Assembly (NCBI RefSeq): GCF_003334335.1
Contig: NZ_QOWQ01000046.1
Reading direction: 5' to 3' (one strand)
Length of the DNA: 32,332 nt
From: Escherichia coli
Lineage (GTDB): Bacteria > Pseudomonadota > Gammaproteobacteria > Enterobacterales > Enterobacteriaceae
Made by a program: the position numbers. Each line of letters opens with the position of its first letter. The stretch's first letter is position 1. Of the stretch, positions 6,001 through 9,000 are shown in pieces.

Positions 6001-9000
6001 CTAATATTATGGTGGAGGACACCGCGCATACGATTAATAAAAAAGTGGGCTGGTTGCTGCACGGGCAGGAGTCAATTCTGGTGCCAGATTTCAACACCAA
6101 ATGTCAGTGCCAGATTTTAGGTGAAGGAATTGGTTTTTTGCCGGATTACATGGTCCGTGAGGCGATGACGCAATCCCTGCTGGTTACCCGACAAATCCAT
6201 AATCCGCGCCAGGATTCGCGCATGTTACTGGCGACTCAGCATTCTGCTACGGGTCAGGTGACGCAGTGGATTAAAAAACAATTTGCGCCAAATGGCATAT
6301 TAACGGGGATCTATCAGGATTTACTGCATCGGGAGAATTAATCGCTGCCAACCTCCCGATGCGCTGTGAATAGCGGTTTACATCAACCACCTGCTTTCAT
6401 TACCCATTCAGAGATAAATTTATTACCCGGTACTGGCGGAGAGTACAAATAGCCCTGCAAAAAGTGAACGCCTTTACCGATCATTAAATCCGCCTGCTCC
6501 TGGGTTTCTACCCCTTCCGCCACGATACTCAGACCAGGCTTACGCGCTAGTTCGACAATATTGTCCACAATATGACCGGAGATTTCGTCGACACTCGCCA
6601 TTTGCACAAATGACTTATCGATCTTAATAAAATCGACCGGGAACGCCTGCAAGTAACGATAGGTCGCATAACCCGTACCAAAGTCATCCAGCGCAAAGGT
6701 AATGTTGTGCTGATGAAGGCTGTCAAATATCGCTCTGGCTTCTGGCGTTACCGGAATAGGGTTACGTTCCGTTAGCTCGAGAACCAGCTTGATTTTATCG
6801 TTACCTAATTTATTAACCAGGTTCAGACACTCTTTTTCAAATCCCGCTGCCAAAAAACAACCCGCCGAGACGTTGATGCCAATATGGAAATTGTCCGGCA
6901 GCAAATGTTTTACCGGCATCAGAATATCCGCAGTCTGTTTCATCAGTTGGCGGGTCATTATGACAATAAGACCGGATGACTCCGCCAGAGGAATAAACTG
7001 ATCCGGTGGGATAATTCCCGTTTGTGGATGTTCCCAGCGGACAAGCACCTCACAGCCCGTCAGTACCCCAGTCTGCGCGCAGAAAACCGGTTGGATCCAC
7101 GGTTTGAATTCGTGGTTTTCCAACGCCAGACTGATGGCTTCAGGCGTGACGATATGGTGATAGTGATTATCATTAATATATCTGTGACTATTACTCCCCG
7201 TGGCGGATATGATCTCCGGATTGTACTGAAAGAAAATATCGCGCCAGAAAGTAATATCGCTCTGAATCCCCAGTTTCTCAAAGAGCTGTTTCTTTTGATG
7301 TGAAATTGTCTTTGCACTGCGATTTCTGTACTGTGATATTTCTGTTACAGACATTCCCTGCATCAGCAGCTTGAGTAGCAGTCGTTCTTTCTCGGATACG
7401 CTACCAGGCAATGACAAATGAACCGTTGTACCGAACTCTTGCAGAAAAACACGAAAATCACATGAATTCATGAACACACCTTTATCTTTTATCGCTGTTC
7501 AGTATGAGTGATTACCTGTCGATTCCTGAGCACACATAAGGGGTAACCATAAACATCAGCGATGCCATACGTATAACATCCCACATCACTATCAAGAAGA
7601 TTATCTTTACCTCTGATGCTCGCTCAAAAACAGTTACGCTAAATACCTTAAAAAGATAATCACAAGTCAAACTCAGGAGATAATCACGCAAGAATGCAAT
7701 ATTAAAATTCAGATACTCATTTTTGGTAATAAAGAAGTAGTTGGACTATTTCAATATTTATAATTTCCCACTACATACTGGCATCCATTCATGAGCAAAG
7801 GCGCATTATATGAATTTAACAATCCAGATCAACTGAAAATACCTCTCCCTCATAAACACATAGCGTCAACATTCAATGACATAATGAGTAAAGATGTTGG
7901 TTATGCATACGTATCATTACTCTATGCCTGTCCCTTAAAAACCCACTCATTAAGACTGAATCCATTCAGCAAATGATAACCAATATTATAGCAATGCCAA
8001 TAAAAACAATATTTAAAACATTCAATAAAATATCACACACAGATAATTAAACCTTAAATAACAAATGGTTGCGTTAATTTTAGTTGATTTACGATACACA
8101 TTTCTCATGAATAATGCGTCATTTCAAATGATCAGCAATATTTACATTAAATAAGACTAAACTTATTGAACATTCGCAACAGCCCAAATGTAGGTTTTGG
8201 GCTGCAATAGTTCTTTTCTTTTTTATTATCTGTTGTCTGGTAATCATCAATAGATACTAAGGGCTTAACCGTATAGATATAACGTATCAAGAGGTAGGAG
8301 AAACAGCGCCATATGCAGACATGGCGCGGTTTTATGCAATAACAATCACGCGTCCGGGAACATCACGCTATGGCCCGGCGCTTCACGATGGAGATGAATA
8401 AAGTTAAGGTGCCGCTCGTACTGGTCAAGAATATCGGTGATCACCTGCTCTTTGCTGTAGTCCATCAGGTCGTTGCCCTGGCTGCCTTCTAACAGGAAGG
8501 TTTCCAGCCGGTAGTAGGTCGATTTACCGCTGCGTGCGCGGTAGGTAAAGCCCGGCACCGAATATTGCTGCGGCCAAATCTGATAGACAAAGTTTTGCTC
8601 TTCGCCCATATGCACCAACAAATCCAGATGACCCAACTGCTGTCCCTCTTCCGGTGGCAGGCTTTTTAGCTCCACGTACGCGCCGCGCAACCGCAACTCC
8701 TGCGCCACTTCTTCCATTGCCGGGTAACAGACCGTCTCCATCATCTGTTTAGTGTAACGCGTGCCCGGATAATTCATCAGGCGCGAGAGACGTTTTTTCC
8801 AGCTCAGGCGATCCTGAAGCCCCAGCGGTCGCGGTGCGGTATCGCGGTTGGCACTTTCACGGCGGTAATCTTCTACCTTCAGAGATTTATACAACCCCGC
8901 CATCACGAAGAAGATCACAAAGCTGAACGGCAGCCCCATAATCACCGTGGTGTTTTGCAGCGCGGATATCCCGTTAGTCATCAGCATGCCGAGCGTCAGC

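What the first reader, a model, noticed from the sequence alone, without database searches (positions are those of the whole stretch)
7478..8345. 868-bp AT-rich gap between pdeL and betT with no convincing ORF
Intergenic regions this long are unusual in E. coli. The stretch is strongly AT-rich with runs such as aatattaaaattcagatactcatttttggtaataaag. It is upstream of pdeL (a regulator that is also an EAL phosphodiesterase) and downstream of betT. It could hold a long 5' leader, nucleoid-protein silencing sites, autoregulatory PdeL sites or an unannotated small RNA or small protein. The only track ORF here (7791-7976, 61 aa) has no clear Shine-Dalgarno.
Basis: partly seen in the sequence, partly recalled or inferred. 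Interest (0 to 1): 0.4.

Follow-up and report, generated by a model that had tools for sequence, protein, structure and literature searches.

The report
Known pdeL control region holding yahV
The long AT-rich gap is the already-studied control region and probable long leader of the E. coli pdeL gene, and it also holds the tiny, experimentally detected gene yahV, so it is real but largely explained.

Summary
The gap is real. It is 874 bp from the betT stop (8346) to the RefSeq pdeL ATG (7471), with GC 0.336, the most AT-rich stretch of that length in the window.

It is not empty or unexplained:
- RefSeq annotates yahV (24 aa, 7966-8040, minus strand). Its product was detected by chromosomal epitope tagging (VanOrsdel 2018).
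- Published oligonucleotides (Reinders 2021) map on the window. They place the distal PdeL box CIB at 8147-8170, the Cra box at 7955-7970 and the Cra-dependent PdeL box at 7942-7954.
- The core promoter is TTGATC-N16-TATAAT (7832-7805). That implies a leader of about 327 nt.
- H-NS silencing of pdeL is published.

Comparison with diverged Escherichia alleles shows footprints at exactly these sites. No Rfam hit or unusual RNA fold supports an sRNA.

One addition seems undescribed. About 26% of complete E. coli genomes, and E. whittamii, carry the adhesin gene ehaA here. The same Cra box, a PdeL-type palindrome and the same core promoter sit in front of ehaA. This predicts Cra/PdeL control of EhaA.

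Verdict: already known; low interest.

The parts
8306..8327 (-). betT intrinsic-terminator hairpin (GCGCCATGTCTGCATATGGCGC followed by TGTTTCTCCT). This is the only part of the gap shared at high identity with ehaA-type genomes.
   Evidence: The terminator scan finds it. RNA fold gives -16.3 kcal/mol, z = -4.4. The 40 bp at 8306-8345 is the only match in about 1,500 genomes.
8184..8208 (.). Perfect 9-bp stem hairpin CAGCCCAAA-N7-TTTGGGCTG of unknown role, directly upstream of the CIB fragment. It is not conserved.
   Evidence: Fold gives -14.9 kcal/mol, z = -3.5. The stem is broken without compensation in the B2 allele and degenerate in E1V33 and SCPM-8794. The published pdeL deletion primer 16112 ends right after it.
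8147..8170 (-). CIB, the Cra-independent (distal) PdeL box: TTCAATAAGTTTAGTCTTATTTAA, with palindrome AATAAG-N6-CTTATT. A published H-NS site overlaps its left half.
   Evidence: Primers 4991 and 4997 map to 8180..8114, and the legend says the fragment is CIB plus 10 bp upstream and 33 bp downstream. It is the only AATAAG-N6-CTTAT in the 32 kb. It is 88-96% conserved where flanks are 47-62%.
7966..8040 (-). yahV, a 24-aa hydrophobic small protein (VCDILLNVLNIVFIGIAIILVIIC, GTG start, AAGG 11 nt upstream). It lies between CIB and the Cra box, and its stop codon is inside the Cra box.
   Evidence: RefSeq annotates it as 'protein YahV'. The identical sequence is in Table 1 of VanOrsdel 2018, which lists SPA-tag-detected proteins. 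The ORF is intact in three E. coli alleles, but all 9 nucleotide changes are nonsynonymous. It is broken or absent in E1V33, SCPM-8794, EDL933 and E. whittamii.
7955..7970 (-). Cra box (CB): GCTGAATGGATTCAGT.
   Evidence: It is the only match (2 mismatches) to GCTGAATCGATTCAGC in the window. It lies inside the published CB/CDB oligo 4695, and primer 5030 scrambles exactly these bases. It is invariant across all haplotypes and species examined.
7942..7954 (-). CDB, the Cra-dependent PdeL box: CTTAATGAGTGGG.
   Evidence: These are the bases replaced in the published CDB-scramble primer 5028, and they lie within oligo 4695.
7863..7896 (-). Conserved block CATCTTTACTCATTATGTCATTGAATGTTGACGC between the Cra box and the promoter. 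I found no published site assigned to it.
   Evidence: It is nearly invariant in four gap-type alleles, while the CB-to-promoter interval as a whole is only 59-63% identical in the diverged alleles. It is not conserved in ehaA-type alleles.
7805..7842 (-). pdeL core promoter: an AT-rich upstream stretch, -35 TTGATC (7832-7827), a 16-bp spacer, and -10 TATAAT (7810-7805). The inferred start is near 7798.
   Evidence: The promoter scan scores it 10 of 12. It lies in the published RNAP-recruitment fragment (primers 4695 and 4283, which map to 7971..7793). The published mutant primer 5032 changes the flanking and spacer bases but keeps both hexamers. It is 90-100% conserved, including upstream of ehaA and in E. 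albertii.
7472..7798 (-). Inferred pdeL 5' leader of about 327 nt. The 3' half is highly conserved. It contains a direct repeat GTGATTATCT-N14-GTGATTATCT (7687-7654).
   Evidence: It is the distance from the inferred start to the RefSeq ATG. Identity is 95-98% between the A and B2 alleles and 85% in the 3' half against diverged alleles. The fold is not unusual, z = -0.57. Covariation is weak. There is no Rfam hit. The repeat is, and SCPM-8794 lacks one 24-bp unit.
7791..7976 (+). It is antisense to the pdeL promoter and Cra box and is judged spurious.
   Evidence: It carries several in-frame stops in E1V33 and SCPM-8794, and its stop is lost in the B2 allele. It has no NCBIfam match. It is not annotated in any genome inspected.
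6383..7471 (-). pdeL (LuxR-type HTH plus EAL c-di-GMP phosphodiesterase and transcription factor), the gene this region controls.
   Evidence: RefSeq annotation and ORF list.

Best explanation
The gap is the upstream regulatory region plus the long 5' leader of pdeL, and a small translated ORF, yahV, is embedded in it.

Reading the minus strand from betT, the elements are:
1. the betT terminator;
2. a low-affinity PdeL palindrome (CIB) that H-NS also binds;
3. yahV;
4. a Cra box abutting the high-affinity, Cra-dependent PdeL box (CDB);
5. about 110 bp further on, a sigma-70 promoter (TTGATC-N16-TATAAT);
6. a leader of about 327 nt before the pdeL ATG.

The published mechanism runs as follows. 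The AT-rich DNA is coated and silenced by H-NS. Cra binds its box and lets PdeL bind CDB. At low c-di-GMP, PdeL forms tetramers that engage CDB and CIB about 200 bp apart. This recruits RNA polymerase and counteracts H-NS, giving switch-like positive autoregulation.

My inferences:
- The gap is long and AT-rich because it must hold two distant PdeL sites, an H-NS nucleation platform and a long leader.
- yahV is a young, lineage-restricted ORF that arose in T-rich regulatory DNA. It is translated but shows no purifying selection on its sequence.
For: Shown here:
- The published CIB, CB/CDB and RNAP-fragment oligos map uniquely to 8180-8114, 7971-7942 and 7971-7793.
- The Cra consensus and the CIB palindrome each occur only once in the 32 kb, at those places.
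- A 10/12 promoter match lies inside the RNAP fragment. The authors' mutant primer leaves both hexamers intact.
- Against alleles whose background identity is 42-67%, identity is 88-96% for CIB, 94-100% for the Cra box, 90-100% for the core promoter and 85-98% for the 3' leader.
- yahV is annotated in RefSeq, and its product is identical to the SPA-tag-detected protein.
- GC is 0.336, the lowest in the window.

From the literature:
- Cra and PdeL are co-activators.
- H-NS represses pdeL and competes with PdeL at CIB.
- PdeL tetramers act at low c-di-GMP.
- IHF and Fis sites lie between CIB and CDB (bioRxiv 10.1101/2021.10.01.462762).
- PdeL binds a palindrome far upstream, with Cra further downstream (PMC5052742).
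Against: - The transcription start was not read from data here. It is inferred from the hexamers and from the limits of the published fragment, so the 327-nt leader length is an inference.
- The papers that mapped the promoter (Shimada 2005; Reinders 2016) were not readable.
- No promoter for yahV was identified. Its transcript could come from betT read-through or from an unrecognised promoter.
- A conserved block (7863-7896) and the very conserved 3' leader have no assigned function.
- H-NS binding could not be tested with these tools. A motif count was uninformative.
Confidence: 0.85

Rival explanations
1. The gap encodes an independent small RNA or a structured cis-regulatory RNA, for example a riboswitch in the pdeL leader or an antisense RNA ending at the 8184-8208 hairpin.
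For: The 3' half of the leader is 85-98% conserved. A hairpin at 8184-8208 is followed on the plus strand by a T-rich run, and a weak plus-strand promoter-like site lies at 8088-8115.
Against: No Rfam family matches even at E <= 1, other than a chance miRNA hit. The leader MFE is ordinary, z = -0.57. The covariation term is only -3.3 kcal/mol with four sequences. The 8184-8208 stem is broken without compensation in the B2 allele and degenerate in other lineages. Its T-run starts 9 nt after the stem.
Confidence: 0.06
2. The 61-aa plus-strand ORF (7791-7976) flagged by the first reader is a real gene.
For: It is the longest ORF in the gap and is open in the K-12-type allele.
Against: It has multiple in-frame stops in E1V33 and SCPM-8794, and its stop is lost in B2. 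It has no family match and is not annotated in any inspected genome. It overlaps the pdeL promoter and Cra box on the opposite strand.
Confidence: 0.02
3. The gap is merely the non-functional scar of a deleted autotransporter gene (ehaA). That gene occupies this position in other E. coli strains.
For: ehaA lies between betT and pdeL in EDL933-type genomes and in E. whittamii. E. albertii carries decayed ehaA fragments there. The Cra box and core promoter are shared.
Against: blastn, tblastn with EhaA and nhmmer profiles find no ehaA-derived sequence in the K-12-type gap. The gap-type haplotype is itself old, because diverged versions exist in two other Escherichia lineages. It carries conserved, experimentally validated sites.
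Confidence: 0.1
4. YahV is a conserved, functional small membrane protein, for example one modulating BetT, osmotic response or motility as proposed in PMC9976479. On this view the gap is largely a gene plus its own promoter.
For: The protein was detected when tagged. It is a predicted single transmembrane helix, and its position next to bet and pdeL is kept in phylogroups A, B1 and C. The ORF stays open and hydrophobic (GRAVY 2.6-3.2) in three E. coli allele groups.
Against: All 9 substitutions among the three alleles are nonsynonymous. The probability is about 1e-6 if omega = 0.1 and 0.07 if neutral. yahV identity to diverged alleles (59-67%) equals background. The ORF is destroyed in E1V33, replaced by an unrelated ORF in SCPM-8794 and absent in ehaA-type alleles. 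The coding strand is 52% T, which by itself yields Ile, Leu, Val and Phe codons. PGAP does not call it in the B2-type allele.
Confidence: 0.2

Closest known systems
The pdeL (yahA) promoter region of E. coli K-12, as dissected by Reinders et al. (J Bacteriol 2016; bioRxiv 10.1101/2021.10.01.462762), Shimada et al. and the Schnetz laboratory
   Same: It is the same DNA. The published CIB, CB/CDB and RNAP-fragment oligos match the window, apart from text-extraction errors. Their lacZ fusion carries the whole betT-pdeL intergenic region.
   Different: The window differs from K-12-like records at about 2 of 868 bases. The readable texts do not mention yahV or the ehaA haplotype in connection with these sites.
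yahV (b4730), a small protein identified by VanOrsdel et al. 2018 (PMC6001520)
   Same: The 24-aa sequence, the flanking genes and the strand are identical.
   Different: The coordinates printed in that paper (331802-331876) are 776 higher than the RefSeq position of the same ORF in a K-12-like record (331026-331100). No function is known. My comparison suggests a young, unconstrained ORF.
The ehaA locus (autotransporter adhesin EhaA) between betT and pdeL in E. coli O157:H7 EDL933
   Same: It has the same chromosomal slot, the same betT terminator and the same Cra box. The core promoter is the same, about 140 bp downstream of that box. The PdeL-type palindrome AATAAG-N6-CTTAT is also present.
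   Different: In EDL933 the promoter is followed by a leader of about 240 nt, the 3,984-bp ehaA, a strong hairpin and 141 bp before pdeL. CIB-distal DNA and yahV are absent. The first ~300 nt of pdeL are only 70-90% identical.
H-NS-silenced AT-rich regulatory regions with long intergenic spacers, such as the 823-bp region upstream of ecpR in the same neighbourhood (bgl and proU are named from my own knowledge)
   Same: It is an AT-rich, unusually long spacer whose published repression by H-NS is relieved by specific activators.
   Different: Here the anti-silencer is the product of the regulated gene itself, and it senses c-di-GMP.

Membership tests
Published pdeL regulatory region (Cra/PdeL/H-NS-controlled promoter) | Cra box matching the Cra consensus at the published position | tested here: met
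   GCTGAATGGATTCAGT at 7970-7955 is the unique match in 32 kb. It lies inside published oligo 4695 and is scrambled by primer 5030.
Published pdeL regulatory region (Cra/PdeL/H-NS-controlled promoter) | Two PdeL boxes: a distal palindromic CIB and a Cra-adjacent CDB | tested here: met
   The CIB fragment primers map to 8180-8114, and the palindrome at 8167-8150 is unique in the window. The CDB bases 7954-7942 are defined by scramble primer 5028.
Published pdeL regulatory region (Cra/PdeL/H-NS-controlled promoter) | Sigma-70 promoter within the RNAP-recruitment fragment | tested here: met
   TTGATC-N16-TATAAT at 7832-7805 lies inside 7971-7793. Both hexamers are retained in published mutant primer 5032. 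It is conserved in all haplotypes. The actual start site was not verified.
Published pdeL regulatory region (Cra/PdeL/H-NS-controlled promoter) | H-NS occupancy and repression | not testable with these tools
   Only composition (GC 0.336) and literature statements are available. A count of the 10-mer H-NS motif was not enriched window-wide.
yahV small-protein gene | Identical ORF in the same context, annotated and with its product detected | tested here: met
yahV small-protein gene | Purifying selection or conservation expected of a functional protein | tested here: not met
   There are 0 synonymous and 9 nonsynonymous changes among three alleles. The ORF is lost in other Escherichia lineages. 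Identity equals background.
Known small RNA or riboswitch families (Rfam 15) | Covariance-model match | tested here: not met
   At E <= 1 there is only a chance 17.5-bit miRNA hit, against a gathering score of 60.
Structured cis-regulatory leader | Unusually stable fold or compensatory base changes | tested here: inconclusive
   The fold z-score is -0.57. Six pairs show double changes among 100, but only four sequences were available.
ehaA pseudogene remnant | Residual nucleotide or protein similarity to ehaA | tested here: not met
   blastn, tblastn and nhmmer find none in the K-12-type gap. E. albertii, by contrast, shows clear remnants.

The most novel reading that the evidence does not exclude
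The K-12 pdeL promoter is the ortholog of the ehaA promoter. In the roughly one quarter of E. coli that carry ehaA, and in E. whittamii, three elements sit in front of the adhesin gene: the same Cra box, a PdeL-type palindrome (AATAAG-N6-CTTAT) and the same core promoter. On this reading the biofilm adhesin EhaA is switched by Cra and by the c-di-GMP-sensing regulator PdeL. The two haplotypes would wire the same switch either to an adhesin (followed by pdeL) or directly to pdeL. As a corollary, yahV would be a de novo ORF born in the regulatory DNA of the ehaA-less haplotype. No paper in the searchable library links ehaA with pdeL or Cra regulation.
Probability: 0.4. Interest if true: 0.45.

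Novelty: already known. Interest (0 to 1): 0.2.

Why it matters
The main value is housekeeping. A suspicious-looking 'empty' 0.87-kb spacer turns out to be a well-studied bistable c-di-GMP switch with an annotated micro-gene in it, so it should not be pursued as a new element.

Two modest points could interest specialists:
- The Cra box, a PdeL-type palindrome and the core promoter are shared with the ehaA haplotype. This gives a directly testable prediction that the adhesin EhaA is under Cra, PdeL and c-di-GMP control in EHEC and other ehaA-positive strains.
- yahV lies between the two PdeL boxes, and its stop codon is inside the Cra box. Published site-scramble mutants of the Cra box therefore also alter YahV. 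In addition, yahV looks like a recently born, unconstrained ORF, which makes it a useful case for the debate on how many detected small proteins are functional.

Tried and rejected
- Rfam at a permissive threshold gave nothing.
- The leader fold and alifold showed no unusual stability and little covariation.
- My first guess for the Cra box, a half-site-like GGAATCGACAGG at about 7519-7534, was rejected. The consensus search and the published oligos place the box at 7955-7970.
- An H-NS 10-mer motif count was not different from shuffles.
- A search for ehaA remnants in the K-12-type gap by blastn, tblastn and nhmmer was negative.
- A repeat search found only short AT-rich chance matches, plus a 10-mer direct repeat in the leader.
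- NCBIfam has no model matching YahV, the 61-aa ORF or the 59-aa leader ORF.
- Attempts to read Reinders 2016 and Shimada 2011 failed because they are not held. The mapped transcription start could therefore not be taken from the primary source.
- One literature search was wasted on noisy terms, and another on 'betT' matching 'better'.
- Other promoter-like sites were considered and set aside because their -10 hexamers are not conserved in diverged alleles. They lie at 8000-7973 inside yahV, at 7627-7600 in the leader and at 8088-8115 on the plus strand.
- A 24-codon ORF in the 3' leader (ATG at about 7590) is open in all four gap-type alleles, but its start codon and Shine-Dalgarno are not conserved. 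It is left as undecided.
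Full report
**1. The observation**

betT (8346-10379) and pdeL lie on the minus strand, so the gap follows betT and precedes pdeL.
- RefSeq starts pdeL at the ATG at 7471, which has an AAGG 8 nt upstream, giving 874 bp.
- GC is 0.336 against a window median of 0.485. This is the most AT-rich 874-bp stretch in the 32 kb.
- In a 49-kb annotated K-12-like neighbourhood, 874 bp would be the largest CDS-to-CDS spacing.

The physical observation therefore holds.

**2. The gap is not empty**

A megablast against 5,426 complete E. coli genomes found the gap in 3,651 of them at 80% coverage or more. 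In the closest ones the feature 'protein YahV' is annotated under the match.
- In a K-12-like record the CDS maps to window 7966-8040, minus strand.
- It translates to VCDILLNVLNIVFIGIAIILVIIC.
[quoted passage not shown] 2018. That study tagged chromosomal sORFs with SPA and assayed them by immunoblot (PMC6001520).
- A later paper discusses yahV (b4730) as a 24-aa single-helix protein restricted to phylogroups A, B1 and C (PMC9976479).

'No convincing ORF' and 'unannotated small protein' are therefore out of date.

**3. Mapping the published regulatory sites**

Reinders et al. (bioRxiv 10.1101/2021.10.01.462762) report the following:
- Cra and PdeL co-activate pdeL.
- PdeL binds a proximal Cra-dependent box (CDB) overlapping the Cra site, and a distal Cra-independent palindrome (CIB).
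- H-NS silences the promoter and competes with PdeL at CIB.
- IHF and Fis sites lie between CIB and CDB.
- PdeL tetramers formed at low c-di-GMP drive a cooperative, bistable switch.

Their supplementary primer table let me place these sites on the window.
- The CIB fragment primers map to 8180-8114. The legend says the fragment is CIB plus 10 bp upstream and 33 bp downstream. CIB is therefore 8170-8147, TTCAATAAGTTTAGTCTTATTTAA.
- The CB/CDB oligo maps to 7971-7942.
- The Cra-box scramble primer replaces GCTGAATGGATTCAG (7970-7956).
- The CDB scramble replaces CTTAATGAGTGGG (7954-7942).
- The RNAP-recruitment fragment runs from 7971 to 7793.
- Their promoter-lacZ fusion carries the entire intergenic region.

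Independent checks agree.
- The Cra consensus has a single match in the whole window, at 7955-7970.
- AATAAG-N6-CTTAT has a single site, at CIB.
- The best promoter-like site on the minus strand, TTGATC-N16-TATAAT (7832-7805), lies inside the RNAP fragment. A published mutant primer changes the bases around and between these hexamers but keeps both.

From this I infer a start near 7798 and a leader of about 327 nt. This is an inference. The papers that mapped the promoter were not readable.

**4. Comparative footprinting**

A scan of one genome per species found full-length PdeL orthologues only in Escherichia.

Two lineages carry the gap-type arrangement in very diverged form. They are Escherichia sp. 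E1V33 and strain SCPM-O-B-8794.

| Segment | Identity to K-12-type in the three other gap-type alleles |
|---|---|
| Non-footprint segments | 42-67% in E1V33 and SCPM-8794 |
| CIB | 88-96% |
| Cra box | 94-100% |
| Core promoter | 90-100% |
| 3' half of the leader | 85-98% |
| yahV | 59-67% in E1V33 and SCPM-8794 |

An additional conserved block (7863-7896) has no assigned role.

Between the K-12-type and the B2-type E. coli alleles, divergence is concentrated in the betT-proximal ~570 bp. The pdeL-proximal ~300 bp are about 99% identical.

**5. yahV and the 61-aa ORF**

yahV is open in the three E. coli allele groups sampled. However, all 9 nucleotide differences among them change the amino acid.
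- This is expected with probability 0.07 under neutrality.
- It is expected with probability about 1e-6 if omega were 0.1.

In other lineages the ORF does not survive.
- In E1V33 the start is lost and a stop appears at codon 9.
- In SCPM-8794 a different hydrophobic ORF ends at the same TGA.
- ehaA-type alleles have no such ORF.

The coding strand is 52% T. I conclude that yahV is a young ORF in T-rich regulatory DNA. It is translated, but it shows no sign of sequence constraint.

Its position is notable. It lies between the two PdeL boxes, and its stop codon is inside the Cra box.

It has no family match and is antisense to the promoter. I judge it spurious.

**6. RNA elements**

- Rfam finds nothing.
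- The leader's folding energy is ordinary, z = -0.57.
- Covariation among four sequences is weak.
- The betT terminator hairpin (8306-8327) is clear.
- A second perfect hairpin (8184-8208) is stable, but it is not conserved and shows no compensatory changes.

I find no support for an independent sRNA.

**7. An alternative haplotype**

About 1,500 genomes match only the last 40 bp of the gap, which is the betT terminator.
- In EDL933 and TUM18530 the slot is filled by ehaA, a 3,984-bp autotransporter adhesin gene. It has 573 bp upstream and 141 bp downstream.
- The ehaA upstream region is present in 1,402 of 5,426 genomes.
- E. whittamii has the intact ehaA arrangement, and E. albertii has decayed ehaA fragments.

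The K-12-type gap shows no ehaA-derived sequence.

Three islands are nevertheless shared.
- The Cra box is identical in every allele.
- The core promoter, TATTTTnAGTTGATyTG...TATAATGCG, lies at the same ~140-bp distance from the Cra box.
- A PdeL-type palindrome AATAAG-N6-CTTAT is present. In ehaA-type alleles it lies between the Cra box and the promoter and occurs only there in the 14-15-kb loci.

pdeL differs between the haplotypes in two ways.
- Its first ~300 nt are only 70-90% identical.
- The stretch MSVTEISQYRNRSAKTISHQKKQL in the N-terminal DNA-binding region is unchanged. I take this to include the recognition helix, which is my reading of the alignment rather than a test.

After ehaA there is a 12-bp-stem hairpin and no recognisable promoter before pdeL.

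The K-12 pdeL promoter is therefore orthologous to the ehaA promoter. I predict that EhaA is under Cra, PdeL and c-di-GMP control in ehaA-positive strains. I found no paper in the searchable library making this link.

**8. Verdict**

The finding is a true observation whose explanation is already in the literature and in RefSeq. The gap holds a silenced, autoregulated promoter region with distant sites, a long leader and a validated micro-ORF. The ehaA-promoter orthology and the unconstrained evolution of yahV are modest additions.

Noticed in passing
window 7478-8305, compared with L004 2343-7040 (EDL933) and L006: The betT-pdeL slot is dimorphic in E. coli. About 67% of complete genomes carry the AT-rich gap and about 26% carry the 4-kb ehaA adhesin cassette. 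The Cra box, a PdeL-type palindrome and the core promoter are shared between the two forms.
   Followed up: yes
window 6383-7471 (pdeL), compared with L004 1254-2342: The first ~300 nt of pdeL (N-terminal domain and linker) are only 70-90% identical between the gap-type and ehaA-type haplotypes, while the EAL part is 93-100% identical. The divergent haplotype block therefore runs into the gene. PGAP names the EDL933 form only 'EAL domain-containing protein'.
   Followed up: partly
window 7863-7896: The 34-bp block CATCTTTACTCATTATGTCATTGAATGTTGACGC between the Cra box and the promoter is nearly invariant in all gap-type alleles, but I could not find a published binding site for it.
   Followed up: partly
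window 7654-7687: There is an exact 10-mer direct repeat (minus strand GTGATTATCT, 24 bp start to start) in the pdeL leader. Strain SCPM-O-B-8794 lacks one 24-bp unit, as expected from slippage.
   Followed up: partly
window ~7520-7594 (minus strand): A 24-codon ORF in the conserved 3' leader (MWDVIRMASLMFMVTPYVCSGIDR) is open with the same stop position in all four gap-type alleles. Its start codon and ribosome-binding site are not conserved, so it is undecided whether it is a uORF.
   Followed up: partly
window 7966-7970: The published Cra-box scramble mutation (primer 5030) also destroys the yahV stop codon and last codon. The CB-minus strains therefore make an extended YahV. This possible confound is not discussed in the texts I could read.
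   Followed up: no
yahV coordinates in PMC6001520 Table 1: The paper prints 331802-331876 for yahV. The same ORF is at 331026-331100 in a K-12-like RefSeq record, an offset of exactly 776 bp. The printed interval would fall inside pdeL.
   Followed up: partly
window 8306-15380, compared with L007, L008 and L010: In E. whittamii, Escherichia sp. E1V33 and SCPM-O-B-8794 the whole ykgH-betABIT segment (about 7 kb) is missing, and ykgEFG abuts the pdeL/ehaA upstream region. E. whittamii keeps the last 26 nt of betT plus its terminator, which points to a deletion.
   Followed up: partly
H18 (NZ_CM180508.1), inside the region equivalent to the gap: One strain carries an IS1 insertion inside the gap. 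In the first search 12 of the 5,321 matching places were on plasmids.
   Followed up: no
L004 1-1212 (EDL933): yahB and yahC next to pdeL are annotated as frameshifted pseudogenes in EDL933.
   Followed up: no
L051 10513-11337 (K-12-like record; ecpR-ykgL): A second very long spacer (823 bp) lies upstream of ecpR in the same neighbourhood.
   Followed up: no
L005 (B2-type allele), region equivalent to window 7966-8040: The yahV ORF is intact in the B2-type allele (VSDILSIVLNIVFIVIVIMLAIYC), but PGAP leaves it unannotated. In the 96-99% alleles it is called 'hypothetical protein'.
   Followed up: yes
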